A DNA stretch of 64,000 nucleotides. Origin: an uncultured delta proteobacterium. Lineage in GTDB: Bacteria > Desulfobacterota > Syntrophorhabdia > Syntrophorhabdales > WCHB1-27. Below the pieces are notes generated by a model that searched no databases, was not told the DNA's origin, and worked only from the letters and a program-made list of their open reading frames with translations. Position 1 is the stretch's first letter, and the number at the start of each line of letters is the position of its first letter. Made by a program: the position numbers and the translations under genes. The stretch is from positions 256,001 to 320,000 of the forward strand of contig CAWEPK010000008.1 in NCBI GenBank assembly GCA_963810935.1. Reading direction: 5' to 3'. Below are positions 1 to 24,935 of the stretch, one piece after another.

Positions 1-145
1 CGGGGTCGGCCAGGTCTTTTTCATATGAAAAACCTATCCGCTCCAGGTCTTCGGGACCGTAAACCGGCTTAACGTGGATACCCGACTGGAGCGTCACGTC
101 CGTTATCTGGTCCTTCCCGTCCTTTGTGTATTTTGCAACTCCCAT
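1..145 (-). CDS. B12-dependent acyl-CoA (methylmalonyl-CoA-like) mutase large subunit, N-terminus (runs off window)
   Basis: Manual translation from ATG at 145 (GGAGG RBS upstream): MGVAKYTKDGKDQITDVTLQSGIHVKPVYGPEDLERIGFSYEKDLADP, matching the SGI.VKPVY.P.D N-terminus of MCM-family large subunits; follows the B12-binding subunit gene. Confidence 0.85.
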   Translation of the reverse strand, partial: MGVAKYTKDGKDQITDVTLQSGIHVKPVYGPEDLERIGFSYEKDLADP

Positions 146-158
146 CTCGCCTCCTTAA

Positions 159-223
159 TGGGGCTTGCGTCGCCCCCTCCACGAGCAAAGCTCGTAGAGC
201 CTCCCCTTCATAAAAAGGAAGAG
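159..223 (-). repeat. Palindromic intergenic repeat, copy 1
   Basis: TGGGGCTTGCGTCGCCCCCTCCACGAGCAAAGCTCGTAGAGCCTCCCCTTCATAAAAAGGAAGAG; about 55/65 identical to 4886-4950. Confidence 0.9.
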
Positions 224-233
224 GCAACACATC

Positions 234-638
234 CTAACCCCGCTTCGCGTTGTCGCGGATAAACTCCACGATTTCGGAAAAACGGGTGCCGCCCGGAAAG
301 ACGCCGGAAACGCCGAGGCCTTTTAGCCGCCCGATGTCGAGGTTGGGTATCACGCCCCCGACAAGGACCATCTTGTCGCCTATCCCCTCTTTGTCCACCG
401 CTTTCATGAGCTTTTGCACGATGGGGATATGGGCGCCGCTCATGATCGAGAGGCCGATAACGTCCACGTCCTCCTGGATCGCTATCCTCACGATCTGATC
501 GACGGTCCTGTGCAGGCCCGTATAAACTACCTCCATGCCCGCTTCCTTGAGGGCCAGGGCAACCACCCTTGCGCCCCTGTCGTGCCCGTCCAGTCCCGGC
601 TTGGCAATCAATACCTTAATGGGTTTCTTGCTCTCCAA
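234..638 (-). CDS. Cobalamin-binding small subunit of acyl-CoA mutase
   Basis: AKPGLDGHDRGA (DxHxxG), GLSIMSG, VGGVIP; likely TTG start at 638 after GGGAGGGG. Confidence 0.95.
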   Translation of the reverse strand: MESKKPIKVLIAKPGLDGHDRGARVVALALKEAGMEVVYTGLHRTVDQIVRIAIQEDVDVIGLSIMSGAHIPIVQKLMKAVDKEGIGDKMVLVGGVIPNLDIGRLKGLGVSGVFPGGTRFSEIVEFIRDNAKRG

Positions 639-669
639 CTTCCCCTCCCGCAGCACCTGCCGCTACCGA

Positions 670-682
670 GTATACTGTATAC
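670..682. promoter_or_regulatory. Putative GntR-family operator GTATACTGTATAC (site 1)
   Basis: 13-bp palindrome identical at 8502 and 24901. Confidence 0.75.
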
Positions 683-727: not shown

Positions 728-1435
728 TCAATTTCCCTTTACGGACATATCTTTCAGGACTATTTCCATCCCCCGGAGAAGGTGCCTTCTGACCAGTATT
801 TCAACGTTTTGAGGGTCCCGTTCCTTCATAGCCTGGACTATCTTTTCGTGCTCCGCGAGGGAGGCGGCCGCGTTCTCCGTGCAGTTAAGCAGGCGCCTCC
901 TGTACCGCGAGATGAAGTCCCGGAAATTGCCTATGAGGGCGCAAAGCGTCTTGCTCCCCGAGGCATTGAAAATGATCTCGTCCAGGCTGTCGTTGAACTG
1001 CGTCATCCTCGTCGTGTCGCCGCGCTTCAATGCCTCCCTGTATCCGTCCAGGGCAGCCTCCATCCGCGCGATTGTCGACCCGTTCATGCGCGCCGTCGCA
1101 AGGCCCGCTGCGTAGCTTTCGATCACCGCCCGTATCCCGAAGGTTTCCTCTATCTCTTCCGCCGAGAGGTCCTTCACGACGAAGCCGCCCTTCTCCAGCC
1201 TTTCCACCAGGCCGTCCTGCTCCAATTTGCGAAAGGCCTCCCTGACGGGGATGCGGCTGATCTTCATCTGGCCTGAAAGAGTATTCTCAACAAGCCTCTG
1301 GCCCGGATAAAGGTCACCTTTTACGATCGCCTCCCGCAGCGAAGCGTAGGCCGTCTCCCCGATGGGGCGCGGCTTGCCGACCGCCTTGATGCCCTTAAGC
1401 GGCTTGACCGTTTTGACTCCTTGCTTCTGCGCCAC
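728..1435 (-). CDS. GntR-family regulator (wHTH + FCD)
   Basis: LREAIVKGDLYPGQRLVE...SRIPVREA; C-terminal EHEKIVQA. Confidence 0.95.
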   Translation of the reverse strand: MAQKQGVKTVKPLKGIKAVGKPRPIGETAYASLREAIVKGDLYPGQRLVENTLSGQMKISRIPVREAFRKLEQDGLVERLEKGGFVVKDLSAEEIEETFGIRAVIESYAAGLATARMNGSTIARMEAALDGYREALKRGDTTRMTQFNDSLDEIIFNASGSKTLCALIGNFRDFISRYRRRLLNCTENAAASLAEHEKIVQAMKERDPQNVEILVRRHLLRGMEIVLKDMSVKGN

Positions 1436-1449: not shown

Positions 1450-1728
1450 CTATCCGCAGCGATACTGGACGCCGCATTCTCCTCTGGGATATTCCCAGGT
1501 AATGGCTTTGTGCACACAGGCGATCTTGCACGTGCCGCACTCCAGGCATCCTGCGTATTCGACGACTATCTCCTGCGTATCCTCGTTCACCGAATAGAGA
1601 TGGCCCGGGCAGATGCGGATGCAATACCTCTCCTTGCACCGGGCGCAAATCTCCTTATCCAGCTTGATATGGCTCTCTTTGTCGTTTTTGATGGCGTCGA
1701 GCGCCAGCTTCTCTTCAACCTTCATCAC
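1450..1728 (-). CDS. fixX: Ferredoxin-like protein FixX
   Basis: CARC...CIRICP, CLECGTC..C, WEYPRG; overlaps fixC. Confidence 0.9.
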   Translation of the reverse strand: MMKVEEKLALDAIKNDKESHIKLDKEICARCKERYCIRICPGHLYSVNEDTQEIVVEYAGCLECGTCKIACVHKAITWEYPRGECGVQYRCG

Positions 1729-3020
1729 ATCCGCCTCAGTGCCAGAAAGTCTTTGAACCCCTGAAACGCGCTGATATACCGTTTGTTTACCGCCTTGGCT
1801 GTCTTGTAAAGGGACCCCTTCGGCCCCTCCCCTATAGTAAAGAGCTCCTCGAACAGCTCGCAGAGGAACCGCGGGTAGACGCTTAAGAACCGTGGGTTTT
1901 CCAGTACCTCACCGGAATGGCGGAACGTCTCCATATCTTTGAGGACGAAGCTCTCCTTCAATTTCTGCTCATAGACCGAAAGCGCCCCGGCCGAGAAGTC
2001 ACCCTTCGACAGCGCCTCATCCGCAGCCTCTGCGGCGATGACGCCGGAGGCCACCGCGAAATCCATGCCCCTCACCGTAAGCCCCATATTGAGGGCCAGG
2101 CCCGCGGCGTCCCCCGCAATGAGCATCCCGCCCGTGTAAAGCTTCGTCAGGCCGCCGTACCCCGCCTCGGAGATGATATGGGCCGAATATTCCTTAAGCT
2201 CGCCGCCTTTAAGGAAGCGCGCTACTTCCGGTCTTGCCGTAAAGCCGTCGATCAGGCGGTGCATCTCGGCATCGCCCGCATTTTTCAGAAAAGAGCCTAT
2301 CCCTACGACGATGCCGGCGGAGATGCTCTCCCTGTTCGTGTAGAGAAATCCCCCGCCGAACATGCCTTTGGTAACCGACCCCGCGTAAAGGCCGGCCGCG
2401 CCCTCGCCCTCTTCGAGGCCGAAACGCTCCTCGATCCTGCCGGGCTCGAGCTTGTATACCTCTTTGATCGCTACGGCGTAATCGGCAGGCTCGAGGTCTT
2501 TCCGCAGGCCCGCCTTTTCCGCCATGAAGGAAAGCGCCCCGTCCGCGGCGATCACTATATTCGCCGGTATCTCCTCGTCGCCGATCCTGACGCCTGCTAC
2601 GCGGCCGTCCTCGAAGAGCAGCCCGTCCACCTTCCGCTTCGGGATGACGAACCCTCCCTTCTCCATGACCTTCTCGGAAAGCCAGTTGTCGAAGGTCGCG
2701 CGAAGGACCGTGTAGCTCATGTACGGCGGTTTCTTCCATTTGTCGTTTGTGTGCTCGACCTGCACGGACGCGCCCTCGTCGAGGAGCGTCACTATCTCCC
2801 TGACGACCGGCCGCTCGAAAGGCGCTTCTTTGAGGATCGCGGGGATATACTTGCGCAACGGCGCTACGTAAATCCTGCCTCCTGTAACGTTCTTGCTCCC
2901 GCACGTATCGCCCCGTTCCAGGAGTATGACCTGTCTGCCTGCTTCAAGCAGGCGGTAGGCGGCGCAAAGACCCGCAAGCCCTCCGCCGACGATCACCACA
3001 TCCATTTTATCTTCAGACAT
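1725..3020 (-). CDS. fixC: ETF:quinone oxidoreductase FixC-like flavoprotein
   Basis: VGGGLAG, GSKNVTGG, GGGFLYTN, AGDAAG, RGMDFA. Confidence 0.92.
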   Translation of the reverse strand: MSEDKMDVVIVGGGLAGLCAAYRLLEAGRQVILLERGDTCGSKNVTGGRIYVAPLRKYIPAILKEAPFERPVVREIVTLLDEGASVQVEHTNDKWKKPPYMSYTVLRATFDNWLSEKVMEKGGFVIPKRKVDGLLFEDGRVAGVRIGDEEIPANIVIAADGALSFMAEKAGLRKDLEPADYAVAIKEVYKLEPGRIEERFGLEEGEGAAGLYAGSVTKGMFGGGFLYTNRESISAGIVVGIGSFLKNAGDAEMHRLIDGFTARPEVARFLKGGELKEYSAHIISEAGYGGLTKLYTGGMLIAGDAAGLALNMGLTVRGMDFAVASGVIAAEAADEALSKGDFSAGALSVYEQKLKESFVLKDMETFRHSGEVLENPRFLSVYPRFLCELFEELFTIGEGPKGSLYKTAKAVNKRYISAFQGFKDFLALRRM

Positions 3021-3022
3021 CG

Positions 3023-4000
3023 TTATCCGCCGGTCCTCTTTTTAAGCTCCGCGGTCATCGCAGGCACTACATCGAACAAGTCTCCCACGATCCCGTAATT
3101 GGCATACTGGAAGATGATGGCGTTCGGGTCCCTGTTTACGGCAAGGACCAGCTTCGACGTATCCATGCCCATTATATGATGGATTGCGCCCGATATGCCG
3201 ATAGCAATGTACAGCTTGGGCGATACGGTCTTGCCGCTCTTGCCCACCTGGTCTTCCACGTCGCGCCAGCCCGCGTCGACGACCGACCTCGTCGCGCCGA
3301 CCGTCCCCCCGAGCACAGCCGCAAGCTCCTCGATAAGGGCAAAGTTTTCGGGGGCCTTCAGACCCCTGCCGCCTGACACTATCGTATCGGCCTCGGTGAG
3401 ATCGACCTTGCCCGCCTGCTTCTGCTCAACCCGAAGCACCTTCGTGTGCATCGCACTTGCGTCGAGCCCTGCCTGTTTCTCTATGAGGGTGCCCGCTCCA
3501 CCGGCGGCCTCAGCGACCGGGAACGTGTTCGGCCTGGTGGTCACGATAACGGGATAGGCGGCAGGTGAGACTTCCGTGAGCACCTTGCCGCCGTAAATGG
3601 GCCGCACGAAGCTCATCGGGTCTGTGTCCCATGCTGCGGCCGTTACGTCGGACACTATGCCGCAGCCGAGGAGCACTGCGACCCTCGGCAGGAAATCGCG
3701 CCCTGTCTGCGTCGCGCCCGCAACTATTATTTTAGGGTTGGCTTCCTTGGCATAACCTGCAAAGGCTGCCGCATAAGCTTCCGGCGTGTATGACTCAAGC
3801 AGGGGGTCGTCGATATGGACGAGCGTCTCCGTTAATGCGAGCAGCTTTTCTGCAAGCTTTCCGGAAAGTGGGCCCAGCACTGCGGCCTCGACCTTAAACC
3901 GGCCGGATTGCGCAAGCCGGCGGCCCTCGCTCAAAACCTCCAGGGAAGCCTTTTTTGCCTCGTCGCCCTTAGTCTCCACAAATACAAGGATAGTCTCCAT
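3023..4000 (-). CDS. etfA: Electron transfer flavoprotein alpha subunit
   Basis: IVSGGRG, GATRSVVDAGW, PKLYIAIGISGA. Confidence 0.95.
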   Translation of the reverse strand: METILVFVETKGDEAKKASLEVLSEGRRLAQSGRFKVEAAVLGPLSGKLAEKLLALTETLVHIDDPLLESYTPEAYAAAFAGYAKEANPKIIVAGATQTGRDFLPRVAVLLGCGIVSDVTAAAWDTDPMSFVRPIYGGKVLTEVSPAAYPVIVTTRPNTFPVAEAAGGAGTLIEKQAGLDASAMHTKVLRVEQKQAGKVDLTEADTIVSGGRGLKAPENFALIEELAAVLGGTVGATRSVVDAGWRDVEDQVGKSGKTVSPKLYIAIGISGAIHHIMGMDTSKLVLAVNRDPNAIIFQYANYGIVGDLFDVVPAMTAELKKRTGG

Positions 4001-4008
4001 GGCTCCCC

Positions 4009-4791
4009 CTAAATGACCCGTTCTACGTCGGCGAGGATCTTTACCGCCTCTGCCGCGGCCTCTGCCGCTTCCCCGCCTATGATCTTAACGGGCGGCCTTT
4101 TCTTCGGGGCAAGGTAGCGTTTTACCCGCACCTTCGACCCGGCGAGGCCCACCGCATCGCTCTCCAGCCCCAGGTCTTCCGGCCCTATCTTCGGTATCTG
4201 GGCCTTCATCGCCTTCATGACACCCGTGATCGGCGCTACGCGCGGCTGGTTCAGACCTTTCTGTACGGTAATGACTGCGGGCAGGGAAACCTCGATGACT
4301 TCCCTCCCGCTTTCCGTGAGCGATTCTGCAACCGCCTTCCCTTCGCCGATATCGAGCTTCACGACTGCGCCGACGTGAGGGAGCCCCAGGAACTGCGCGA
4401 CCATGGGCCCGACCTCGCCCCTGTCGTCGTCAACGGCCTGCCTGCCGCACAATACGATGTCGTACGGCTCCTTCGCCACCGCTTTCGAGAGGGCCAGCGC
4501 GGTCGAATAGCCGTCGCCGTCGAGGAAAGCCGCGTTCTCCAGGAGCAGGGCGGCGTCCGCCCCCATGGCAATGCCGGTCCTGAGCACCTCCGTCGCCTTG
4601 CCTGCGCCCAGGGTTATGACCAGCACGCGCCCGCCGAGGCGCTCTCTTATCCGCAGGGCCTCTTCGAGGGCGAACTCGTCGAATATGCTCGTAGCGAACT
4701 TCTGCTCGATCTCGAGCTTTGCACCGTCGCCCTTTATCTCTATGGCCGCTTCCGCGTCGGGCACCTGCTTTGCCAGAACGACTACATTCAT
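4009..4791 (-). CDS. etfB: Electron transfer flavoprotein beta subunit
   Basis: KQVPD, DEFALEEAL, AMGAD, CGRQAVD. Confidence 0.95.
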   Translation of the reverse strand: MNVVVLAKQVPDAEAAIEIKGDGAKLEIEQKFATSIFDEFALEEALRIRERLGGRVLVITLGAGKATEVLRTGIAMGADAALLLENAAFLDGDGYSTALALSKAVAKEPYDIVLCGRQAVDDDRGEVGPMVAQFLGLPHVGAVVKLDIGEGKAVAESLTESGREVIEVSLPAVITVQKGLNQPRVAPITGVMKAMKAQIPKIGPEDLGLESDAVGLAGSKVRVKRYLAPKKRPPVKIIGGEAAEAAAEAVKILADVERVI

Positions 4792-6217: not shown

Positions 6218-7168
6218 CTATTTTTCTATCCTGAACACGACCTTTTCGACAATGCTCTCGACCGCGCCGTAAGGGTCCCGCTTCCTCTCGACGGCCTCCC
6301 CGGCTATCTCCATGCAGACCTTATCGTCCCGGACCGCCGCGCCTGCACGCTGCCAGACCTCTTCCTTTAGAAGGTCCATAGTGAAGGCGGCAGTCCTCTC
6401 CTCTCTGCGCTTCTTTCTCCGTCCTTCTTCCGCGAGGAAGCGCCAGTGCCTGTCGATTTCACCCGCAAGGTCTGTAATGCCCTCGCCCCGGTCTGCCCGC
6501 GTGCTCATTACCGGGGGCAGCCAGCCGTCCGAGCCTGCGGCCAGTATGGAGGCGATGGTGGCTTTCGCACTCTCCGCCCCCGCGATATCGGTCTTATTGA
6601 CTACGATAATATCGCCAACCTCCAGAAGACCCGCCTTCAACAATTGGACCTCGTCGCCGTACTCAGGCGTAAAAAGGACGATCATCGTATCGCACAGGTA
6701 AGAAAGGGCCTTCTCGCCCTGCCCGGCCCCCATGCTTTCAACCAGGACTCTCTCCTTACCCAGGGCCTCCAGGACATATACCGCACCTGCCGCTGCCCTC
6801 GCAAGTCCGCCGGGGTAACCCCTGTGCGCCATCGACCTTATAAAAACGCCCAGTTTCTCCGCGCCTTTCATCCGTAGCCGGTCGGCCAGGAGCGCGCCTG
6901 CGCCCGCAATGCTCGTGGGGTCAACCGCTACGACACCCACCCTCTTTCCCTGCCCGGCGAAAGCCACGGCCAGTCCGCCCGTTACGGTGCTCTTACCCGC
7001 ACCGGGCGGCCCTGTGATGCCTATTATATGGGCCCTGCCCGTATGGCCGAAGAGACGGGAGAGCTCAACGTAACCCTCCCTCGACCCGTTCTCGATCAGC
7101 GTGATGAGACGGGCGGCGCTTTTTTCATCGCCCGCTATTATCTTCTCTGCGAGCCCTGACACAGCCAA
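6218..7168 (-). CDS. meaB: Mutase-associated GTPase chaperone MeaB/ArgK
   Basis: GITGPPGAGKST, AVDPTS, DRLRM, FIRSMA, VNKTD. Confidence 0.93.
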   Translation of the reverse strand: MAVSGLAEKIIAGDEKSAARLITLIENGSREGYVELSRLFGHTGRAHIIGITGPPGAGKSTVTGGLAVAFAGQGKRVGVVAVDPTSIAGAGALLADRLRMKGAEKLGVFIRSMAHRGYPGGLARAAAGAVYVLEALGKERVLVESMGAGQGEKALSYLCDTMIVLFTPEYGDEVQLLKAGLLEVGDIIVVNKTDIAGAESAKATIASILAAGSDGWLPPVMSTRADRGEGITDLAGEIDRHWRFLAEEGRRKKRREERTAAFTMDLLKEEVWQRAGAAVRDDKVCMEIAGEAVERKRDPYGAVESIVEKVVFRIEK

Positions 7169-7181: not shown

Positions 7182-8372
7182 TCAGATGACCTCTTTATTT
7201 TTCATCTCTTTGATCTGTTCATCGGAATATCCCAGCACCTTCCCGTAAATCTCAGCGTTATGCTCACCGAACCTCGGCGGGAACGACATTGTCCGGCTGT
7301 TCTCTGTGAGGAACGCGGTCATGTGCGGCGGCGGCGCCATCCATATCTTCGTGCCGGTCACAGGGTCCGTGGCGGTGAGCATCGACTTCGAAACCAGCGT
7401 GTCCTCCATGACGTCTTTTATCGTGTTGACCCTCGATATGGGAATGGTCGCCTTGTTGAAAACCTCGATTATATCGTCGGTGGTACGGGTGCGCGTACAA
7501 CTGTTTATCTGCTCGTTCAGGCTTATTACGTCCGCGATCCTGCCCTTGTTCTTCTCGTATTCGGGCCGCGCCAGCTTCTCGAAGCCCGGTAATTGCGTGA
7601 AGGAAACCCACTGGCGGTCGTTCCCTACCGCTATGTAGACGTATCCGTCTTTCGTTTCGTAGACTGAAACGGGGGAAAAGAACTCGTGCGTATTGCCTCT
7701 GCGCGTCACCTTCGTGCCGAAGGACTTGGCTAGGCCCAAGGCCACCGTGAGCCAGGACGTGGTGGACATGAACATCGAAACGTCGATCCTCTCGCCCTCT
7801 CCTGTCAGCGCCCGCTTGCAAAGCGCCTTCATAATCAGGCCGTAACCGTGCTCGCTCGTCCCCATGTCCGGAAGCGGGATACCGAGGACCTGCGGGTCCC
7901 CGCCCGCATTCCCCGTAAGCTCCATCAGGCCCCCTCTCGCCTGGAGGATGGGATCGTAAGCCGCCTCGTTGCTTTCCGGCCCGAAGCCCGTGAGGCCCAT
8001 CCAGATGAGGTCCGGCTTGACCGCTTTGAGCGATTCGTAGTCTACGCCGAGCTTTTCGTAGTTGCGCGGGAGCTGGTTCGTCGCGAAGATATCGACGTTC
8101 ATCTTCACGATCATTTCCTTGAGCAGCTTCCGCCCTTCCGGCGATCCCAGGTTGAGGGTAACGGCTTTCTTTCCCGCGTTTATCGTAAGGAAATAAGCGT
8201 TCATCTTCTCTTCGCCGAGCCTGTTATCGCCGATCTGCCGGTTCGGGTCACCGAATACCGGGTGCTCCAGCCTGATAACACGCATGCCGTCCATTGCGAG
8301 CCTGTAGCTCAGATATGGCAATACGGTGGCCTGCTCCAGCGAGAGCATCGTCATATTCCTGAAAACGTCCAT
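7182..8372 (-). CDS. Class III CoA-transferase (CaiB/BaiF family)
   Basis: GDPNR, NAGKKAVTL, TGFGP, AYDPILQA..GLM, PPRFGEHN. Confidence 0.93.
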   Translation of the reverse strand: MDVFRNMTMLSLEQATVLPYLSYRLAMDGMRVIRLEHPVFGDPNRQIGDNRLGEEKMNAYFLTINAGKKAVTLNLGSPEGRKLLKEMIVKMNVDIFATNQLPRNYEKLGVDYESLKAVKPDLIWMGLTGFGPESNEAAYDPILQARGGLMELTGNAGGDPQVLGIPLPDMGTSEHGYGLIMKALCKRALTGEGERIDVSMFMSTTSWLTVALGLAKSFGTKVTRRGNTHEFFSPVSVYETKDGYVYIAVGNDRQWVSFTQLPGFEKLARPEYEKNKGRIADVISLNEQINSCTRTRTTDDIIEVFNKATIPISRVNTIKDVMEDTLVSKSMLTATDPVTGTKIWMAPPPHMTAFLTENSRTMSFPPRFGEHNAEIYGKVLGYSDEQIKEMKNKEVI

Positions 8373-8449: not shown

Positions 8450-8479
8450 TTGACACAATCATGCTATTATTCGTATCAT
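8450..8479 (+). promoter_or_regulatory. sigma70-type promoter for the Mo-enzyme operon
   Basis: TTGACA (8450-8455), 18 nt, TATCAT (8474-8479). Confidence 0.55.
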
Positions 8480-8501
8480 TCTGTTCATGGTGCGAGGGTA
8501 T

Positions 8502-8514
8502 GTATACTGTATAC
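8502..8514. promoter_or_regulatory. Putative GntR-family operator GTATACTGTATAC (site 2)
   Basis: Identical palindrome between two face-to-face promoters. Confidence 0.75.
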
Positions 8515-8527
8515 CGTCCCCTTGTCC

Positions 8528-8557
8528 AGTATAGTTAAGACGGCGGTTTCTTGTCAA
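8528..8557 (-). promoter_or_regulatory. sigma70-type promoter for the CoA-transferase operon
   Basis: Minus strand TTGACA (8557-8552), 18 nt, TATACT (8533-8528). Confidence 0.6.
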
Positions 8558-8741: not shown

Positions 8742-9743
8742 ATGAGACTGCCCCCTTTCCAATACCTATCGCCGGGGAAAGTGAAAGAGGCTCTGCAGAT
8801 GCTGCACGACCACAAGGGAAGCGTGTGCATGAGCGCCGGCGGGACAGACATCGTGAGCCGTCTGCGGCAGAGGCTCGTTGCCCCGCGCTACCTGATGAGC
8901 CTCAAGAACGTGCCGGAGTTGAAGGGCATCAAAAAAAAGAAGAACGAGCTTGTCATATCCGCCGGGACGAGCCTGCGGGACATCGCGGAGGACCCGGATG
9001 TCGGCTTGCTTTTCGGCGCCCTGGCAGTCTCGGCCGGTCTGGTCGCCGCCTCGCCCATCCGCAACATCGCAACTATCGGGGGCAATATCCTTCAGGATAC
9101 GAGGTGCCTCTTACGTAACCAGTCGGAGCTGGTCCGCGACGCTGCGCCTGCATGCCTGAAACAAGGCGGGAAAGCCTGCCTCGCGCAAAAAGGCGCAACC
9201 CGGTGCCTCTCCGTCTACCAGGGCGACCTGGCGCCGGTCCTCATCGCCTTCGACGCCAAGGCCGTGCTGAAAAAACTCGGCTCGTCCAGGACAGCCCCCG
9301 TATCGGAGCTTTTTTCCGGCAAAGGGAACCAGCCGTTTGCAGTGGAAGACGACGAGCTTCTCACCCAGGTTATCATCCCCGTGCAGCACGGGCATTACGC
9401 CGCTGCCTATAAAAAACTGCGGATGCGCACAGGGCTCGATTATCCCTTCGCCGCTGCTGCGGCCTTCGTCTCTCTCTCTGCTAAGGGTGTGATCGACCGG
9501 GCGCGCCTTGTCGTCGGCGCTGCCGGTCCGGCCCCCGTGATAGTCGAGGAGGCGGCCTCCATTCTTAAAGGGCGCGCGCCTGCGGAAGCGGACCGCGAGG
9601 CGGCTGCGGCCTGCGCGCTCAAAGCCGCAAAGGTGATAGACAACCTCCCCCTCCCCGCTGATTACAGGAGAAAAATGGCGAAGGTGGCGGCGCGCCGGGC
9701 CATCGATGATGCGCTGGGCGCTATCTCAGGGGCGGGTGCGTGA
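8742..9743 (+). CDS. Xanthine-dehydrogenase-family FAD subunit with [4Fe-4S] insertion (HcrB-like)
   Basis: AGGTD, IRNIATIGGN; four-Cys insert TRC...ACLK...ACL...RC, then GDLAP. Confidence 0.9.
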   Translation: MRLPPFQYLSPGKVKEALQMLHDHKGSVCMSAGGTDIVSRLRQRLVAPRYLMSLKNVPELKGIKKKKNELVISAGTSLRDIAEDPDVGLLFGALAVSAGLVAASPIRNIATIGGNILQDTRCLLRNQSELVRDAAPACLKQGGKACLAQKGATRCLSVYQGDLAPVLIAFDAKAVLKKLGSSRTAPVSELFSGKGNQPFAVEDDELLTQVIIPVQHGHYAAAYKKLRMRTGLDYPFAAAAAFVSLSAKGVIDRARLVVGAAGPAPVIVEEAASILKGRAPAEADREAAAACALKAAKVIDNLPLPADYRRKMAKVAARRAIDDALGAISGAGA

Positions 9744-10231
9744 TGGCCAAGTCAGAGAAAATAATGGTGAAGCTGCGGGTTAACGGCGAGGATTATTCTT
9801 TACTGATCGTCCCCCATCTGACGCTTCTTGAAGCACTGCGCGAAGAGCTGCACCTGACGGGTGCCAAGGAAAGCTGCGGCCGCGGCGCCTGCGGGACCTG
9901 CACGGTACTCCTCGACGGCCTGCCGGTGCGTTCCTGCCTGCTCCTTGCGGCGGAAGCGGAAGGCAGGGAGGTTACGACGATAGAAGGGCTCGGCAAAAAA
10001 GGAGCGCTCCACCCCCTGCAGGAGGCGTTCGTCGCCCACCACGCGATACAATGCGGTTTCTGCACGCCCGGAATGATCCTGACGGCCAAGGCGTTCCTCG
10101 ACAAGAACCCGGACCCGACGGAAGAAGAAATACAGATGGCCCTTTCCGGCAACGTCTGCCGCTGCACCGGCTATACGAAAATCGTCGAAGCAGTCAAGGC
10201 TGCGTCCGCCAAGGCCGGCGGAGGTAAGTAG
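9740..10231 (+). CDS. 2x[2Fe-2S] subunit (HcrC/CoxS-like)
   Basis: CGRGACGTCT, QCGFCTPG, CRCTGY. Confidence 0.95.
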   Translation: MMAKSEKIMVKLRVNGEDYSLLIVPHLTLLEALREELHLTGAKESCGRGACGTCTVLLDGLPVRSCLLLAAEAEGREVTTIEGLGKKGALHPLQEAFVAHHAIQCGFCTPGMILTAKAFLDKNPDPTEEEIQMALSGNVCRCTGYTKIVEAVKAASAKAGGGK

Positions 10232-10238: not shown

Positions 10239-12522
10239 ATGGAAGAACTCTCTATCATAGGGAAGAGCGAGGGCGGAAGGGTCGATACTGCGGCAAAAGC
10301 GACGGGCGAGGCCCTCTTTTCCGCGGACCTCTCTCTGCCCCGCATGCTCGTAGGCAAAGTACTCCGCTCCCCTCATGCCCACGCCCGCATCGTCAGCGTC
10401 GATACGTCGAAGGCCGAGCGGCTGCCCGGCGTACGCTCTATCGTGACATCGGCTGACAGCACAGGCGAGAAGTGGGGCGTCTTCCGCTATACGCAGGACC
10501 AGGCGTTCCTGCCAGCCGACAAGGTCCGCTTCATAGGGGAAGAGGTTGCCGCAGTCGCGGCAATAGACGAAGACACGGCGCTCGAAGCCCTGAAGCTTAT
10601 AAAAGTCGAATACGAGGAGCTGCCCGCCGTCTTCACGATTGAAGAAGCGATCAAGCCGGGCGCGGTCCTCATACATGACACGAACCCCGGCAACATCAAC
10701 GTACACGTCAAGATAGACGTGGGCGACGTCGATAAGGGTTTTTCCGCTTCCTATCTTGTCAGGGAGGATACGTTCAACGCTCCGGAGGAGTCTTATTTCC
10801 AGGCCGAGCCGTACGCGGTCGTCGCCTCCTTCGACAGCTCGGGCAACCTCGAGATATGGATGCCGAACGCCGGCCCTCACCTGAAGGCGAAGCCCCTTTC
10901 AAACTGCCTGCGGATGCCCCTCAACAAGGTCAGGGTAAGAAAAATCACGATCGGCGGGGCCTTCGGCGGCAGGTCGGAGATATCGCCCGCCGACGTAATC
11001 TGCGCGCTCCTTGCCCGCAAAGCCGGCGTACCGGTGAAGCTCGCTTACACGAGAGAAGAAAATACGGTTGCGACGCGCCAGGCCCACGGCATGATCGTGA
11101 AGATAAAAACGGGCGTGGACCGGGAAGGCCGCGTCGTAGCGAGGGACCTCACCTGCCACATGGACGGAGGCGCTTATTCCAGCACGGGGCCTATCGCCAC
11201 GAGCGTGCCATTCCTCTGCATGGAGCAGGCGTACCGGATGGAAAACGTCCGCTACAACGGCTACCGCGTCTTCACGAACAAGCCGATAAGGGGCATGTAC
11301 AGGACGCACGGACGCGCCTTCGCCTCCGGCGTCGATTTGCAGCTCGATATGATCGGCGAGGAAATGGGCATCGACCCCGCCGAGATCAGGATCAGGAACG
11401 CGCGCCAGGCCGGCGACTACACCCCTACGAAATCGCTCGTCGTGAGCTGCGCCATGACGGAGACCATCGAGCGCGCGTGCGACGCCGCCGGCTGGAAGGA
11501 GAAGTGGGGCAAGCTCCCGCCCTTCCATGGTATCGGCATAGGGTGCAACTCGGTCCAGACGGGCTTTCCCATGGGCATAAGGGGCGGCTCTTCCGCCTTT
11601 ATCAAATTCAACGAGGACGGCGGCGCCACGGTCATATCGGGTGTCGTTGACAACGGGCAGGGCAATGAGAACATGCTCGTCCAGATCGCGGCCGAAGAGC
11701 TGGGGATACTGCCCGAAGACATACAGCCTCATCAGCGCGGATACCGAGGTGACGCCGAGCGACCCCGGCTCGTACTCAATGTGCGAGACCTTCGTCGGCG
11801 GCAACGCGGTGAGGCTCGCGGCGAAGGACGCGAAAGAGAAGCTTTTCAAGTTCGCGGCGCGCGCCCTTGAGTCGAAGCCGGAAGACCTCGCCGCCAGGGG
11901 AAGGAAGATCTTCGTAAAGGGAGAGCCGGAAAGGTCGATACCCTTTACCAAGGCAGTCCGCATGGCCCTTTCCAAGGGTGAGTCGATAGCCGGCGAAGGC
12001 TCTTACTGGCCCAAAGTCGACCCGAGGCGCGAGTGGGTAGATAACCCGGTCGGGCAGCTCAGCGAGGCCTTCTCCTTCGGCACGACTATCGTCGAGGTGA
12101 AAGTGGACCCGGAAACGGGACTTGTGGATGTTATAGAGGCCTGGGCCGCGCAGGACGTGGGGCGCGCCCTCAACCCGAAGATCGTGGAAGGGCAGTTCGA
12201 AGGCGGCCTTGCGATGGGCGGACAGGGCGGCATGCTGACTGAATTCCATGTCTTTGACCGTGGGAGGTGCCTCAATCCGGACCAGATGGACTACGGGGTG
12301 CCGCTTGCCCCCGACATGCCGAAGATCAACTCGATCATCGTCGAGAGCAACGACCCCGCCGGGCCTTACGGCGCCAAGGAGGCAGGCATGTCTATCGCCA
12401 TGTCTGCGGCACAGGCTTACGTCTCGGCCGTCTGCAACGCCATAGGGGCGCCGATCACGGAGTACCCGCTCACCCCGGACAAGGTCTTAGCTGCGATAGA
12501 GCGAAAGGGTAAAAAGGGCTGA
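10239..12522 (+). CDS. Molybdopterin-binding subunit (HcrA/XdhA-like), one +1 frameshift at about 11727
   Basis: LRSPHAHA, GGAFGGR, DGGAY, DNGQG; continues LISADT...DVGRALNP..VEGQ..GG in the next frame. Confidence 0.9.
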
Positions 12523-14293: not shown

Positions 14294-14776
14294 ATGAAGT
14301 ATCTCGATTACGCGACCGTCATAATCAACAAGGTGCTGCTCGTTTGTGGCGGCATCGCAGTGCTTGCCCTTATGCTCCTCGCTACGGGCAACGTACTCCT
14401 GAGGATCCTCCATTTCCCTTTCAGGGGGACATACGAGATCGTCTCCTTTCTCGGGGCCATCGTCATCTCCTTTGCCCTGGGATACACCGTGAAAAGAAGG
14501 GACCACATCGTAGTGGATATCCTTTCGGAGAAGTATCCCGCAGTGCTCGCAAAAATTATCGACACCATCGCCGATATCGCCGTCGCGATATTCTTCGCCA
14601 TCGTCGCCTGGCAGATGTACGTATGGGGCATGAAGATCTGCGACGAAAGCGAGGTCTCCGAAACGCTCAAGATCATTTATTATCCGTTCGTCTTTGCGTG
14701 TGCCCTGGGTTTCGCTGCGCTCTCCTTCAACGCGCTGGTCGATTTCTTAAAGAAAATAAGCGGACGGGAGGCATAG
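14294..14776 (+). CDS. dctQ: TRAP small permease
   Basis: Four TM segments, HIVVD. Confidence 0.9.
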   Translation: MKYLDYATVIINKVLLVCGGIAVLALMLLATGNVLLRILHFPFRGTYEIVSFLGAIVISFALGYTVKRRDHIVVDILSEKYPAVLAKIIDTIADIAVAIFFAIVAWQMYVWGMKICDESEVSETLKIIYYPFVFACALGFAALSFNALVDFLKKISGREA

Positions 14777-14779
14777 ACG

Positions 14780-16087
14780 ATGAGCGGCCCTATGATAGGC
14801 ATTTACGGCATTCTCGTAATGTTCGCGGTGCTCTTCCTGCTCCGCATACCCGCCGGCTTCACGATGGCGATCGTAGGATTTCTCGGCGTCGCCTACGTAA
14901 CGTCGTTCAAGGCGGCTTTCGGCCTGATCGGCACCGATATGTGGAATATCTTCTCGAACTACGGCCTGACGGTCATCCCCATGTTCATTCTGGTGGGCGA
15001 GTTCGTCCACTACGCAGGCTATAACAACGGGCTTTATCACGCCACGTACAAGTGGTTCGGCCACTATAAAGGCGGCCTCGCCATAACGACCATCATGGCC
15101 TGCGCCGCTTTTTCGGCCATATCCGGCAGCAATACCGCGACCGCCGCGACGATGAGCTCGGTGGCTATACCGGAGATGCGGAAGTACAAATACCACCCGC
15201 AGCTCAACGCCGGGTCAGTTGCCGCAGGGGCGACGCTCGGGGTGCTAATACCGCCCAGCATCGTTCTCGTTGTCTACGGTCTCTATACCGGCCAATCGAT
15301 AGGCAAGCTCTTTTTCGGCAACGTCATACCGAGCGCCATACTGACCGTGCTGATCGCGTGCACTGTCTTCTACATCTGCTGGCGCCACCCCGACTGGGGC
15401 CCCGCCGCGGAAAAGAGCACCTGGAAAGAACGTTTCAAGGCGCTGCCCGACATCATCGACATCCTTATCCTGTTCGCCATAATAATGTACGCCCTCTTCA
15501 CCGGCGTCGTAACAGCCACCGAGGCCGCAGCCGCAAGCTCGACGCTCGGTCTTGCTATCTGTCTCGTCCGCAGGAAGATAACATGGCATGGCTTTATCAC
15601 GTCGATACTCGACACGCTCCGCATCTCCTGCATGGTCTTCATGATCGTCGCGGGCGCCGTTATATTCGGCCGTTTCCTCACCGTGACGAGGCTGCCCTTC
15701 GAGATAGCGGGGATCATAGGCGGCCTCAACATGCCGGGCTGGATGCTTTTGTGGGTTATCCTGATTTGCTACATCATCGGCGGCTGCGTGATGGACGCGC
15801 TGGCTTTCCTGCTTGTTTCGCTGCCGATCTTTTATCCCCTCGTGATGCAGCTCGGTTACGATCCGATCTGGTTCGGCCAGGTTATCTGCATAGTGACGAC
15901 CATGGGCTCGATCATGCCGCCCATAGGCATATGCTGTTACGTGGTGGCAGGCATGGCCAAGGACATACCTCTGGGTACCGTGTTCAGGGGAGGACTCTAC
16001 TACATACCGTCCTATATAATATCGATCATATTGTTGATGCTATCACCGTATTGGACGGTCCTCGTCTTATCGAACCTGGTGAGATAG
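14780..16087 (+). CDS. dctM: TRAP large permease
   Basis: IPMFIL, SGSNTATAA, GVLIPPS, DPIWFG. Confidence 0.95.
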   Translation: MSGPMIGIYGILVMFAVLFLLRIPAGFTMAIVGFLGVAYVTSFKAAFGLIGTDMWNIFSNYGLTVIPMFILVGEFVHYAGYNNGLYHATYKWFGHYKGGLAITTIMACAAFSAISGSNTATAATMSSVAIPEMRKYKYHPQLNAGSVAAGATLGVLIPPSIVLVVYGLYTGQSIGKLFFGNVIPSAILTVLIACTVFYICWRHPDWGPAAEKSTWKERFKALPDIIDILILFAIIMYALFTGVVTATEAAAASSTLGLAICLVRRKITWHGFITSILDTLRISCMVFMIVAGAVIFGRFLTVTRLPFEIAGIIGGLNMPGWMLLWVILICYIIGGCVMDALAFLLVSLPIFYPLVMQLGYDPIWFGQVICIVTTMGSIMPPIGICCYVVAGMAKDIPLGTVFRGGLYYIPSYIISIILLMLSPYWTVLVLSNLVR

Positions 16088-21430: not shown

Positions 21431-21459
21431 ATGGTATCCTTACTGGAAACTTCTGTCAA
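21431..21459 (-). promoter_or_regulatory. Promoter of the XRE regulator with overlapping palindromic operator
   Basis: TTGACA-17-TACCAT on minus; GTATCC-N5-GGAAAC at 21434-21450. Confidence 0.55.
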
Positions 21460-21494
21460 GAATATTTGTTCGGGGAAGGAGGCGGCGACCCATT

Positions 21495-22295: not shown

Positions 22296-22380
22296 AGAAT
22301 AAGGCCGGAGTCTTCTCGCGTCCGTTCCGTTATATATGCTACGCCGCCTCTTCCTTTCTCCGAGGCGCGCGTGCACCTTG

Positions 22381-23646
22381 CTAGAGCGGCTCGTAATGGT
22401 ACTTCGAGGCGATATACGCCATCGACTCGTCGATGGCTGCCGCCGTCTGGTTCAGATCGTCTTCGGTGTGGCGGTAGCTGATATATCCGTGATGGTGGGG
22501 GGTAAGGAAAATCCCCCGCCGGATAAGCTGCGTGTAGAAGTCCGTCCGCCTGCCCTTCTGCGTTTCTCCCTTGTCCTTCTTGAAGGTGACGAAGAACATC
22601 GGCGCCAGGCCGGACAATTCGGCCCCGGTCTCGTATTTGTCGATGGTCGCCTGTATTTTCTTCAGGAACCGGCCGCCCTTCTCCCATATACCGGCGATCA
22701 CCTTTTCGCGCTCCATTACCTCGATGGTCTTCAGGGCCGCGATGTAGCCGTCGCTGTTGGGGAAGAACGTGCTCGATATAAAGAGCTTCTGCGACGCGGC
22801 CATCATCACATCGGCCTTTCCTGTGACTACGCTGATCGCGTACCCGTTCGCCATGCCTTTACCGAGCACGGTAAGGTCGGGCGTTACGCCGTATAGCTCC
22901 TGCGCTCCGCCCATGGCGAGCCTGAAACATGTGCGGACCTCGTCGAAGACGAGCACGGCCCCGTATTTGTCTGCAAGCGCCCTCACCCCTTCGAGGAAGC
23001 CCGGCGCCGGCTCCGCCATCTTCTGATGGAGCGCGTGGCCGAACGGCGTCATGATGATCGCCGCAGTCTGGTCGCCGTATTTCGCCATCAGCTCTTCGAG
23101 GGACGCGAGGTTGTTGTAATGGAACTCGTGCACGTCCTCATAGAGCTTAGCGGGGATGCCGCCCTTCATCTCTACCGACCAGTCATGCCAGCCGTGGTAG
23201 CCGCTCCGCATGACCTTCAGCTTGCCCGTGTACGCACGGGCGATGCGGATGCTTGCCGTAGTCGCGTCGGAGCCCGTCTTGAGGAAGATGCTCATTTCCG
23301 ATGATGGGACAATCCCGGTCAGCTTTTCGGCAAGTGTATTCTGGTGCCTCTGGGTCAGGGTGAAGCAGAAACCCTTGTCTTTTATCTGACTGATGACCGC
23401 ATCATCGACCTCGTCTTCCCTGTAGCCCAGGATGATCGGCCCGTACCCGCAGAGGAAGTCGATATATTCGTTGCCGTCCACGTCCGTCAGGTGGGCGCCC
23501 TTGCCCGACTCAAGGAAAATCGGGTACTCCCCCTCGATGAAGTCGCCAGGCTTTCTCGCTCCCAACACACCGCCCGGCACCACCTTCTTTGCCTGTTCGA
23601 AATACTCCAGGCTTTTCGTGATGTTCAGTTTTCCGGCTTCTTTCAT
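22381..23646 (-). CDS. Class III PLP aminotransferase, GSA-aminomutase-like; resembles acyl-CoA beta-transaminase Kat
   Basis: DVDGNEYID, TGSDAT, GYHGWHD, FDEVRT, PDLTVLGKGMANG, SSTFFPNSDG. Confidence 0.85.
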   Translation of the reverse strand: MKEAGKLNITKSLEYFEQAKKVVPGGVLGARKPGDFIEGEYPIFLESGKGAHLTDVDGNEYIDFLCGYGPIILGYREDEVDDAVISQIKDKGFCFTLTQRHQNTLAEKLTGIVPSSEMSIFLKTGSDATTASIRIARAYTGKLKVMRSGYHGWHDWSVEMKGGIPAKLYEDVHEFHYNNLASLEELMAKYGDQTAAIIMTPFGHALHQKMAEPAPGFLEGVRALADKYGAVLVFDEVRTCFRLAMGGAQELYGVTPDLTVLGKGMANGYAISVVTGKADVMMAASQKLFISSTFFPNSDGYIAALKTIEVMEREKVIAGIWEKGGRFLKKIQATIDKYETGAELSGLAPMFFVTFKKDKGETQKGRRTDFYTQLIRRGIFLTPHHHGYISYRHTEDDLNQTAAAIDESMAYIASKYHYEPL

Positions 23647-23689
23647 GAGAGAATACCCCCTTCTGCCGAGACCGCGAAACGCGGGCCCT

Positions 23690-24835
23690 CTAAATTTCCA
23701 GCATTGACGAAACGCTCTCCGTCTGGTGTATGCGCGCGCCCCGGCTCATCAGGGCGGCGAGGAATTTCTCCGGGTTGATGCAGCCCTCCGGGGCCACCAC
23801 GCCCTTCACGTTTACGTCGCCCGCACGCATCATCAGCGCGGCAATGGAAGCGGGGAGTCCCGTTCCCGGCGCCATCCTGCCCACGATGTCGGCCGTGTAC
23901 GTAACGCGCTTGCCCCCCCTGTCCCCTTTTACTATCACCTTCAGGCCGGACGCCGCCGGCCCCTTGTCCCTGCTTTGCGGGATCGAGCCCCAGACCCGCA
24001 GGGTCAGGTCATAGGGGACCACTTTAACCCCTTTGACGTCTACCGGCTCGGTGCTCAAAAACCCGGTATCTTTCTGCTCCTTGATGAGGTCGTCAACCCA
24101 GGTGGGTATAAGTGCGCCTTTTATGACGACCCTTTTAACATCCTTTATATATCTTGGAATGGTGAGCGGCTGCGGATGGCCCACGTAACGGACCCGGCAC
24201 ACGCCGAGGGGTTCCAGAAAAGTATCGGTCTCCTCTCCCGTCCCGCCTTCGACGTACTCCAGTTTCCCGTCAAGAAACTGGGGGACCATGCCCGTGATCA
24301 TGTGAAGGCTGTGGTCCCAGGCCGCGCCCTCGGAGAGGTCGGCAATGGCCACCACCCAGTAAAGAGCGACTTCATCGACCCTGTCCAACCGGTCCGCGTA
24401 ATATTTGACGATCACGTTGTTCGTGCCCGGGTCGGAGCCCATGCCCGTGAGCACCGTTATCCCCGCATCCCGCGCCGCGGCATCGATCTCGGAGGCGAAA
24501 AGGATCTCCGTGCCCTGGTAATCGTCGCAGATATCGATATAGTTGACGCGCGCCTCGACTGCCGCCTTCGCAACGGGCACGGCTGTCTTGTAGAACGGCC
24601 CTGCGCAGTTTATCACTACGTCGGCTTCTTTGATAGCCGCGACGAGGCCCGCGTGATCGTTCACGTCGACCTTTCTGAGTGATACCTTGTCGCTGGCGCG
24701 GAGTTTCGGCTGCACCCTTTCCGGGTCGATGGCGATGTCCCCCAGGACAACGCTTTTTACTTGCTCCTGCTTGATCAGATCACGGGCCACCCCCTGGCCC
24801 ATGGCCCCTGTGCCGCCAAGCACCAATGTCTGCAT
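23690..24835 (-). CDS. Saccharopine dehydrogenase / lysine 6-dehydrogenase family oxidoreductase
   Basis: LGGTGAMG, NCAGPFY, YIDICDD, GMGSDPG, HPQP, GVVAPE. Confidence 0.9.
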   Translation of the reverse strand: MQTLVLGGTGAMGQGVARDLIKQEQVKSVVLGDIAIDPERVQPKLRASDKVSLRKVDVNDHAGLVAAIKEADVVINCAGPFYKTAVPVAKAAVEARVNYIDICDDYQGTEILFASEIDAAARDAGITVLTGMGSDPGTNNVIVKYYADRLDRVDEVALYWVVAIADLSEGAAWDHSLHMITGMVPQFLDGKLEYVEGGTGEETDTFLEPLGVCRVRYVGHPQPLTIPRYIKDVKRVVIKGALIPTWVDDLIKEQKDTGFLSTEPVDVKGVKVVPYDLTLRVWGSIPQSRDKGPAASGLKVIVKGDRGGKRVTYTADIVGRMAPGTGLPASIAALMMRAGDVNVKGVVAPEGCINPEKFLAALMSRGARIHQTESVSSMLEI

Positions 24836-24900
24836 GACCCCTCCCGCCTTTGTTGGATTAACCGTACCGAAGGAATAACACGCCTTCCGAATACGATACT

Positions 24901-24935
24901 GTATACTGTATACGAAAAATCCGATTGCATGTCAA
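24901..24935 (-). promoter_or_regulatory. sigma70 promoter whose -10 is overlapped by operator GTATACTGTATAC (site 3)
   Basis: TTGACA (24935-24930), 17 nt, TATACA (24912-24907); palindrome at 24901-24913. Confidence 0.75.

What the first reader, a model, noticed from the sequence alone, without database searches (positions are those of the whole stretch)
1..24935. Candidate undescribed catabolic regulon joining a B12 mutase, a divergent Mo enzyme, Etf/FixCX and an acyl-CoA beta-transaminase-like enzyme
Seen: mutase large and small subunits, MeaB, epimerase, class III CoA-transferase, acyl-CoA dehydrogenase, EtfBA-FixCX, HcrBCA-like enzyme and TRAP in two divergent operons. A saccharopine-DH-like and aminotransferase pair several kb further on carries the same operator. 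Knowledge: these families activate an acid to its CoA ester, rearrange the carbon skeleton, epimerise, oxidise and deaminate. Inference: one pathway for a branched or cyclic N-containing acid, for example mutase conversion of a branched aminoacyl-CoA to a beta-aminoacyl-CoA, by analogy with 2-hydroxyisobutyryl-CoA mutase. I recognise no described pathway with this gene set.
Basis: partly seen in the sequence, partly recalled or inferred. Interest (0 to 1): 0.85.

Follow-up and report, generated by a model that had tools for sequence, protein, structure and literature searches.

The report
Expanded anaerobic indoleacetate breakdown regulon
These co-located genes are a strict-anaerobe variant of the known oxygen-free gene set that likely breaks down indoleacetate (the plant hormone auxin, also a tryptophan product); they share a rare DNA palindrome, likely a repressor site, with extra enzyme genes predicted to strip the amino group off the aromatic ring, a step with no tested enzyme in the papers read.

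Summary
The genes and the shared site are real; 'undescribed pathway' is mostly wrong. The mutase operon runs off the window into a CoA ligase, a second Mo enzyme, a lactamase and IOR genes. With these, the set matches the anaerobic indoleacetate (iaa) pathway. The mutase is 56% identical to, and branches with, the mutase of a proxy iaa cluster carrying the published iaaF primer site. It keeps the dicarboxylate-binding Tyr/Arg. The acyl-CoA dehydrogenase has the IaaF GGG motif. GTATAC-N-GTATAC occurs 3 times in 4.06 Mb (0.07 expected), all in this regulon, including before the 22-25 kb pair. The set is near-core in the order (mutase 53 of 61 genomes). Beyond the Aromatoleum operon there is an Hcr-like Mo enzyme (53 of 54 phylum hits co-occur with the mutase), an altered epimerase, a saccharopine-DH-like reductase and a Kat-like transaminase. 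These most likely remove the ring nitrogen at the aminobenzoyl-CoA level; this is inferred and untested. The split HcrA-like gene is an assembly error. The scan already noted this reading on other DNA. Verdict: new variant of a known pathway, with a testable candidate for ring deamination.

The parts
1..145 (-). 5' end of B12 mutase large subunit (542 aa, IaaH-like; rest at G000:C8:254517-256145, followed by PaaK-type ligase, XO-type Mo enzyme FAD/FeS/Mo, lactamase A/B, IOR genes, 2 ABC binding proteins)
234..638 (-). Mutase B12-binding small subunit (IaaG-like, 50% to L095); likely TTG start at 638 behind a G-rich RBS
670..682 (.). Operator-like palindrome GTATAC-T-GTATAC, copy 1, upstream of the mutase genes
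728..1435 (-). GntR/FCD (FadR-subfamily) regulator, inferred binder of the palindrome
   Evidence: a GntR lies in 58 of 80 related loci; site fits the FadR consensus GTM-N0-1-KAC (PMC4494728, passages)
1450..4791 (-). FixX (1450-1728), FixC (1725-3020), EtfA (3023-4000), EtfB (4009-4791): inferred electron outlet of the dehydrogenase
   Evidence: dedicated ETF noted for iaa operons of strict anaerobes (PMC8360864)
4957..6105 (-). IaaF-type (benzylmalonyl-CoA dehydrogenase-like) acyl-CoA dehydrogenase with GGG in place of YEG
   Evidence: (42%)
6218..7168 (-). MeaB GTPase, mutase chaperone (TIGR00750 264 bits, cut-off 241)
7182..8372 (-). Class III CoA-transferase, IaaL-like (37%; sole G000 hit of L095 IaaL)
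8450..8557 (.). Face-to-face sigma70-like promoters (+8450-8479 and -8557-8528, each 11 of 12) with palindrome copy 2 at 8502-8514 between them
8742..9743 (+). HcrB-like FAD subunit with the four-Cys [4Fe-4S] insertion
   Evidence: Cys122/138/146/155 in 26 of 26 rows
9740..10231 (+). HcrC-like 2x[2Fe-2S] subunit
10239..12522 (+). HcrA-like molybdenum subunit; one surplus base at 11727 in this assembly
12528..12959 (+). Methylmalonyl-CoA-epimerase-like VOC protein lacking the second His ligand
13052..16087 (+). TRAP transporter DctP (13052-14077), DctQ (14294-14776), DctM (14780-16087)
22381..23646 (-). GSA-like class III aminotransferase, Kat (acyl-CoA beta-transaminase)-like
23690..24835 (-). 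Saccharopine-dehydrogenase-family NAD(P) oxidoreductase
24901..24913 (.). Palindrome copy 3, 66 bases upstream of the saccharopine-DH-like gene

Best explanation
This is a conserved gene set sharing one rare palindrome, which likely forms a GntR-repressed, strict-anaerobe version of the iaa pathway that degrades indole-3-acetate through CoA esters, with added enzymes predicted to remove the ring amino group. Inferred route. (1) The TRAP system imports the acid; the PaaK-type ligase forms indoleacetyl-CoA, or IOR makes it from tryptophan-derived indolepyruvate. (2) The off-window Mo hydroxylase (IaaIJK-like) oxidises C2 to the oxindole, and the ATP-dependent lactamase opens it to (2-aminophenyl)succinyl-CoA. 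(3) The CoA-transferase moves the CoA, and the B12 mutase, serviced by MeaB, gives (2-aminobenzyl)malonyl-CoA. (4) The VOC protein likely sets its configuration. (5) The GGG dehydrogenase decarboxylates it to 2-aminocinnamoyl-CoA, with electrons leaving through Etf-FixCX. (6) Beta-oxidation enzymes encoded elsewhere give 2-aminobenzoyl-CoA. Steps 1-3, 5 and 6 follow the published pathway by homology (about 0.8); step 4 is my addition. (7) Least certain (about 0.45): the Hcr-like enzyme reduces the aminoaryl-CoA by two electrons, giving benzoyl-CoA plus ammonia. Where present, the saccharopine-DH-like reductase and Kat-like transaminase turn a ring-reduced beta-aminoacyl-CoA into the 2-oxo acyl-CoA plus glutamate, which enters the benzoyl-CoA ring-cleavage route.
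For: Proxy iaa cluster L095 was found by the published iaaF reverse-primer site. Identities to it: mutase large 56%, small 50%, Mo subunit 50%, FeS 53%, dehydrogenase 42%, CoA-transferase 37%, lactamase 34/32%. Its C, E, G, H and L proteins have their sole G000 hit here, F and K their best hit. Tree of 44 mutases: the window clade joins L095/L096 (SH 95) apart from ScpA-type MCM and an HCM-type row. The motifs RQY, IGRG, CGYH, GGGG and ALCS are shared with L095. The dehydrogenase has the IaaF hallmark GGG (PMC8360864) and groups with L095 IaaF (SH 98) away from YEG enzymes. Four same-layout clusters carry a lactamase 56-72% identical to L095 in the same gene slot. TrpB2 lies beside the cluster in 7 of the roughly 120 loci searched and IOR in 6 of 80. 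Conservation: mutase 53, aminotransferase 48, Hcr-like 47, reductase 46, palindrome 49 of 61 genomes. In a 301-genome phylum sample, 53 of 54 Hcr-like and 37 of 40 reductase hits co-occur with the mutase (67 genomes). The Hcr-like enzyme is closest to 4-HBCR among solved structures and keeps its His, Glu and [4Fe-4S] Cys. Kat needs a thioester, turns over beta-Phe-NAC, and has a 60% homolog of unknown role in sulfate reducer NaphS2 (PMC3149608, passages). In G237, which lacks the mutase, reductase plus aminotransferase follow a benzoate-CoA-ligase-family gene. G000 has the ring hydrolase Oah above cut-off.
Against: No growth, expression or enzyme data exist. L095 is a proxy: its forward-primer site did not match within 3 mismatches, and I assigned its iaa names by family and order. 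The ligase is not an IaaB ortholog (no hit), and IaaI, J, M and A have better G000 hits elsewhere. The lactamase is only 32-34% identical, so another substrate is possible. No thiolase or hydratase gene lies in the regulon. Similarity to HcrA is not specific: 649 bits against a cut-off of 995, while three other G000 Mo enzymes score 547-686 and two of them also carry the RGHG His. The reductase is missing in 30 of 67 mutase genomes, and G027 (99% complete) has reductase, aminotransferase and palindrome but no mutase or Hcr-like hit. Kat itself could not be aligned; only 7 of 120 homologs carry the Kat name, and most named ones are called GSA aminotransferase. No benzoyl-CoA reductase above cut-off was found in G000 with two models. 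The reversed control pattern hit 14 of 61 genomes once each. Related genomes are not independent.
Confidence: 0.72

Rival explanations
1. Same iaa-type chemistry, but the physiological substrate is another indole acid, for example a ring-hydroxylated indoleacetate. The Hcr-like enzyme then does ordinary dehydroxylation.
For: Lactamase only 32-34% identical and ligase of a different family from the proxy cluster. The Hcr-like enzyme is closest to a dehydroxylase. DctP is unrelated to the ABC-type IaaM.
Against: Clusters with an IaaCE-close lactamase (56-72%) have the same Hcr-like, epimerase, ligase and mutase genes. Near-core presence across an order fits a common metabolite. TrpB2 and IOR neighbours point to plain indole/tryptophan.
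Confidence: 0.12
2. The core is iaa, but the accessory genes act upstream. The aminotransferase and reductase deaminate tryptamine or tryptophan, and the Hcr-like Mo enzyme oxidises indoleacetaldehyde to indoleacetate.
For: Class III enzymes often act on amines; aminopentol and D-phenylglycine aminotransferases are among the structural hits. An extra [4Fe-4S] cluster also occurs in the oxidative PaoABC (recalled).
Against: Kat-type enzymes need a thioester. In G237 the pair follows a benzoate-CoA-ligase-family gene without the mutase. The Mo subunit scores far higher against 4-HBCR (467 bits) than against the next solved structure (297 bits).
Confidence: 0.1
3. One reading: an undescribed pathway for an aliphatic branched or cyclic amino acid, with an HCM-like mutase making a beta-aminoacyl-CoA for the transaminase.
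For: HCM is the best PDB hit of the mutase (428 bits), the aminotransferase is Kat-like, and a lactamase is present.
Against: No IaaH structure appeared in that search. The mutase is 56% identical to L095 IaaH against 43% to an HCM-type protein, and has Tyr/Arg, not Ile/Gln. It branches with IaaH. The GGG dehydrogenase predicts a 2-carboxyacyl-CoA substrate.
Confidence: 0.05

Closest known systems
iaa gene cluster for anaerobic indoleacetate degradation, Aromatoleum aromaticum EbN1 (IaaB, CE, F, GH, IJK, L, M, A; PMC8360864 introduction, discussion and passages read; Ebenau-Jehle 2012 and Schuehle 2016 not held, known via that paper and recall)
   Same: Split B12 mutase, GGG acyl-CoA dehydrogenase, class III CoA-transferase, XO-type Mo hydroxylase, hydantoinase-type lactamase, GntR regulator; a dedicated ETF as noted there for strict anaerobes.
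   Different: PaaK-type ligase instead of IaaB; divergent lactamase; TRAP; MeaB, epimerase-like VOC, FixCX and IOR genes; no thiolase in the cluster; extra Hcr-like enzyme, saccharopine-DH-like reductase and Kat-like transaminase under one palindrome. None of the extra genes lies in the 20-kb proxy locus L095.
4-hydroxybenzoyl-CoA reductase HcrCAB of Thauera aromatica (PDB 1rm6); Hcr-like putative 4-aminobenzoyl-CoA reductase of Desulfatiglans anilini (PMC7500099, passages)
   Same: Three-subunit XO family, four-Cys insertion in the FAD subunit, aligned His and catalytic Glu. In D. anilini, Hcr-annotated proteins are induced by aniline and 4-aminobenzoate and proposed, untested, to deaminate.
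   Different: About 40% identity and below all three equivalog cut-offs; tied to the iaa mutase rather than to phenol or aniline genes; would act on an ortho-amino group.
Kat, 3-aminobutyryl-CoA aminotransferase of Ca. Cloacamonas acidaminovorans (PMC3149608, passages)
   Same: HemL-like class III enzyme; some close homologs carry the Kat name at JGI; the paper reports a 60% homolog of unknown role in NaphS2.
   Different: No lysine-fermentation genes nearby; paired with a saccharopine-DH-like gene. A direct alignment to Kat was not possible.
2-hydroxyisobutyryl-CoA mutase (PDB 4r3u) and methylmalonyl-CoA mutase
   Same: Fold, B12-binding subunit, MeaB; Tyr89/Arg207 equivalents as in MCM.
   Different: Separate clade; Gly-rich pocket (GLFGGGG where MCM/HCM have HCQT), CGYH and ALCS motifs shared with IaaH.

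Membership tests
iaa cluster | IaaGH-type mutase | tested here: met
   56%/50% to proxy L095, sole G000 hits, shared motifs, joint clade SH 95
iaa cluster | IaaF subclass dehydrogenase with GGG for YEG | tested here: met
   LYGGGT; clade with L095 IaaF, SH 98
iaa cluster | IaaL CoA-transferase and IaaIJK Mo hydroxylase | tested here: met
   IaaL sole hit 37%; IaaK best hit 678 bits versus 399 next; IaaI and IaaJ hits not discriminating
iaa cluster | IaaCE-clade lactamase | tested here: inconclusive
   Sole G000 hits but 32-34%; a closer type (56-72%) fills the same slot in 4 other clusters
iaa cluster | IaaB ligase and IaaA thiolase in the cluster | tested here: not met
   Ligase is PaaK-type with no hit to L095 IaaB; best IaaA hit (49%) on C5 without the palindrome
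iaa cluster | Growth on and induction by indoleacetate | not testable with these tools
   needs culture
Methylmalonyl-CoA mutase | NF006944 cut-off and clade with ScpA | tested here: not met
   434 bits against 876 (split gene); 33-38% to ScpA; separate clade
2-hydroxyisobutyryl-CoA mutase | Ile at the Tyr89 position, no Arg207 (numbering recalled) | tested here: not met
   RQYTG and IGR against RQIAG and MAQ in 4r3u
4-hydroxybenzoyl-CoA reductase | TIGR03193/4/5 equivalog cut-offs | tested here: not met
   177/258, 649/995 (intact G004 ortholog), 203/405
4-hydroxybenzoyl-CoA reductase | Extra [4Fe-4S] Cys in beta; active-site His and Glu in alpha (roles recalled) | tested here: met
   4 Cys in 26 of 26 rows, His in 22 of 22 rows (some loci duplicated), GAKE Glu aligned
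Kat acyl-CoA beta-transaminase | High identity to Kat; activity only on thioesters | tested here: inconclusive
Methylmalonyl-CoA epimerase | TIGR03081 cut-off; His-Glu-His-Glu metal site | tested here: not met
   89 bits against 115; His7 and both Glu kept, second His replaced by Leu in 20 of 20 rows
FadR-subfamily GntR operator | GTM-N0-1-KAC boxes; binding by the regulator | tested here: inconclusive
   Sequence fits and lies at promoters; binding untested

The most novel reading that the evidence does not exclude
The HcrBCA-like enzyme is the deaminating 2-aminobenzoyl-CoA reductase of strict anaerobes: a molybdenum enzyme that reduces an ortho-amino aromatic CoA ester without ATP. The VOC protein, imine/enoyl reductase and Kat-type transaminase form a new module that eliminates the ring nitrogen or captures it as glutamate. 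This would make Syntrophorhabdales and about a fifth of Desulfobacterota the unrecognised mineralisers of tryptophan-derived indoles in methanogenic and sulfidic habitats.
Probability: 0.4. Interest if true: 0.75.

Novelty: new variant of a known kind. Interest (0 to 1): 0.5.

Why it matters
Methanogenic breakdown of tryptophan and indole via oxindole and anthranilate was shown in consortia decades ago (PMC6221969, passages), and 2-aminobenzoyl-CoA reductase is cited as an activity (PMC4539516, passage). I found no tested gene for it in the papers returned; subscription papers were not searchable. This regulon names candidate organisms (a cultured genus, Syntrophorhabdus, is among the record titles), candidate enzymes for the deamination, and a candidate electron outlet (Etf-FixCX) for IaaF, whose acceptor PMC8360864 leaves open. 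The palindrome gives a simple marker for the regulon. The core pathway itself is not new.

Tried and rejected
Homolog search with an IaaF-type dehydrogenase gave no informative names among 120 listed. No plasmid record holds a close mutase or aminotransferase: all mutase hits were under 60% and the best aminotransferase hits 37%. Ebenau-Jehle 2012 is not held; the Kat supplements could not be read and may bear on the Kat assignment; cluster-member look-up could not be made. The idea that reductase plus transaminase replace the IaaP hydratase/dehydrogenase was rejected: 12 of 16 genomes with an IaaP-like hit also have the reductase. A true hcrA pseudogene was rejected. Membership of 16393-22295 in the regulon was rejected. 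The promoter scan at 24836-25000 found nothing. A search for more ligase-reductase-transaminase operons in the order of G237 gave 3 other reductase hits in 37 genomes, whose flanks I did not examine, so that operon is a single case. L095/L096 genomes are not held, so absence of the accessory genes from those genomes is untested. The AlphaFold model of the aminotransferase (pLDDT 68) and the atlas search of the reductase (family only) added nothing. The IQ-TREE run did not finish; trees are FastTree only. No RNA holder listed. Literature searches for Syntrophorhabd + indole + tryptophan (passages of PMC8674449 read) and iaa + sulfate-reducing showed no report of this regulon. A search for HcrA active-site residues found no relevant paper, so those roles are recalled.


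Full report
Observation. The window is G000:C8:256001-320000. The closest homologs of its mutase come from records titled Syntrophorhabdaceae, Syntrophorhabdus or deltaproteobacteria. The leftward operon does not stop at base 1. It continues with the 542-aa mutase large subunit, a PaaK-type CoA ligase, a second xanthine-oxidase-type Mo enzyme, hydantoinase/oxoprolinase A and B, three IOR genes and two ABC binding proteins. The HcrA-like gene is split by one base at 11727, which contigs from 4 of 4 short-read runs of one study lack, so the gene is taken as intact.

The shared site. GTATAC-N-GTATAC occurs 3 times in 4.06 Mb, at window 670, 8502 and 24901. From the hexamer count 0.07 are expected, and other spacers give none. 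The 8502 copy lies between two face-to-face promoter matches of 11 of 12. The pattern is found in 49 of 61 genomes of the order; the reversed control is found once each in 14. It is found in 33 of 80 mutase loci, with the control in 0. In 13 relatives among the listed matches it lies within 0.7 kb upstream of the saccharopine-DH-like gene (read; 34 matches were not listed). It fits the FadR-subfamily consensus (PMC4494728, passages). That the local GntR binds it is inferred.

Identity of the core. PMC8360864 (introduction, discussion and passages) describes the iaa route and says IaaF-subclass enzymes carry GGG for YEG and that iaa operons of strict anaerobes add an ETF. The window enzyme has LYGGGT. 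Lacking the EbN1 proteins, I searched metagenomes with the paper's iaaF reverse-primer site and got L095. It is a complete cluster of regulator, thiolase, ligase, lactamase, dehydrogenase, mutase, Mo enzyme, CoA-transferase and binding protein; I named its genes by family and order, and the forward primer did not match. Identities to the G000 proteins are: mutase 56 and 50%, Mo and FeS subunits 50 and 53%, dehydrogenase 42%, CoA-transferase 37%, lactamase 34 and 32%; the ligase has no hit. C, E, G, H and L have their only G000 hit here and F and K their best; A, B, I, J and M have better hits elsewhere. The mutase keeps Tyr and Arg where HCM has Ile and Gln (residue numbering recalled). It shares CGYH, a glycine-rich pocket and ALCS with L095 and joins L095/L096 in a FastTree of 44 rows (SH 95), apart from ScpA-type and HCM-type rows. 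The dehydrogenase joins L095 IaaF (SH 98) in a 37-row tree. Four deltaproteobacterial clusters of the same layout carry a lactamase 56-72% identical to L095 in the same slot. TrpB2 and IOR genes recur beside the cluster, though G000 gave no TrpB2 hit.

Conservation. Among 61 genomes of the order including G000, the mutase (67% or more) is in 53, the aminotransferase in 48, the Hcr-like subunit in 47 and the reductase in 46. In 16 of 45 relatives the reductase is on the mutase contig within about 32 kb. In 80 mutase loci (many truncated) the neighbours were small subunit 73, lactamase A 66, GntR 58, CoA-transferase 47, ligase 46, an acyl-CoA dehydrogenase 45 (some of YEG type) and Mo subunit 33. 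In an even sample of 301 phylum genomes: mutase 67; Hcr-like 54, of which 53 with the mutase; reductase 40, of which 37 with the mutase. Kinship inflates any test on these counts. VOC, reductase, aminotransferase and Hcr-like genes are repeatedly adjacent in varied order. In G000's genus the reductase-aminotransferase pair has moved and carries its own site.

The accessory module. The Hcr-like enzyme is closest to 4-hydroxybenzoyl-CoA reductase among solved structures. It keeps the four-Cys insertion, the aligned His and the catalytic Glu. It fails the equivalog cut-offs, and other G000 Mo enzymes score as high, one with the exact HcrA motif MRGHG. It works like an Hcr at best and is not filed as one. 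D. anilini induces Hcr-annotated proteins on 4-aminobenzoate, proposed but untested as deaminating (PMC7500099, passages). The aminotransferase forms one 50% cluster. Seven of 120 homologs are named 3-aminobutanoyl-CoA transaminase. Kat needs a thioester, accepts beta-Phe-NAC, and has an unexplained 60% homolog in NaphS2 (PMC3149608), a strain that also has an IaaF ortholog. In G237, without mutase or a close Hcr-like hit, the reductase and aminotransferase follow a benzoate-CoA-ligase-family gene; this is one case. 2-Aminobenzoyl-CoA becomes a beta-amino or beta-enamino acyl-CoA once its ring is reduced, which is the substrate class of Kat (chemical inference). I therefore place the module at ring-nitrogen removal. 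G000 has Oah above cut-off, but no benzoyl-CoA reductase or dienoyl-CoA hydratase above cut-off with the three models tried. The VOC protein lacks one His ligand. An epimerase role fits the stereospecificity of IaaF, but its position beside hcrA allows a role in the nitrogen module.

Verdict. The core is a variant of a described pathway (about 0.8). The whole scheme including an unspecified nitrogen-handling role is about 0.72, and the specific deamination chemistry about 0.4-0.45. Earlier scan notes reached the same reading on this and other genomes; they are unchecked and not counted as support. I had the iaa and deamination ideas in my notes before reading them. New variant of a known kind; interest 0.5.

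Noticed in passing
L136:9873-13848 (G237:C222): Benzoate-CoA-ligase-family gene (TIGR02262 just above cut-off), reductase (48%) and aminotransferase (58%) in one run, in a genome with no mutase hit.
   Followed up: partly
L104:1-1386, L117, L126, L048, L051, L059, L063: TrpB2 (often with IOR) beside the cluster; could route free indole through tryptophan into the pathway. No TrpB2 hit in G000.
   Followed up: partly
L017, L018, L024-L029, L036, L098, L101: Many Syntrophorhabdales clusters have two tandem GGG dehydrogenases (about 53% alike); G000 has one.
   Followed up: partly
L118, L123, L125, L128 versus window operon: Two lactamase types (about 30-38% alike) fill the same gene slot in otherwise matching clusters.
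   Followed up: partly
L051, L057, L059, L063, L064, L067, L085: Variant with a carboxyltransferase-like gene and an ordinary YEG dehydrogenase beside the cluster instead of a GGG enzyme.
   Followed up: no
L160 (G000:C11:71954-79776): HcrAB-like genes in one run with BzdNO-like and activator-like genes, all below cut-offs: an unassigned aryl-CoA reductase cluster.
   Followed up: no
window 26415-37365: GntR, ABC transporter, XDH-like Mo enzyme, hydroxypyruvate isomerase and tartronate-semialdehyde-reductase-like genes; a separate catabolic operon without the palindrome.
   Followed up: no
window 17831-22295: Second TRAP system, XRE-cupin regulator and SDR inserted between the regulon's parts, not conserved beside the mutase elsewhere.
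   Followed up: partly
window 16393-17520 and 25689-26270: Orphan secreted-looking protein with a Gly/Ser-rich tail; DUF5714 protein weakly like the selenoprotein MbdU.
   Followed up: no
L088: Mutase from a record titled Pseudodonghicola sits inside the Desulfobacula branch; misbinning or transfer.
   Followed up: no
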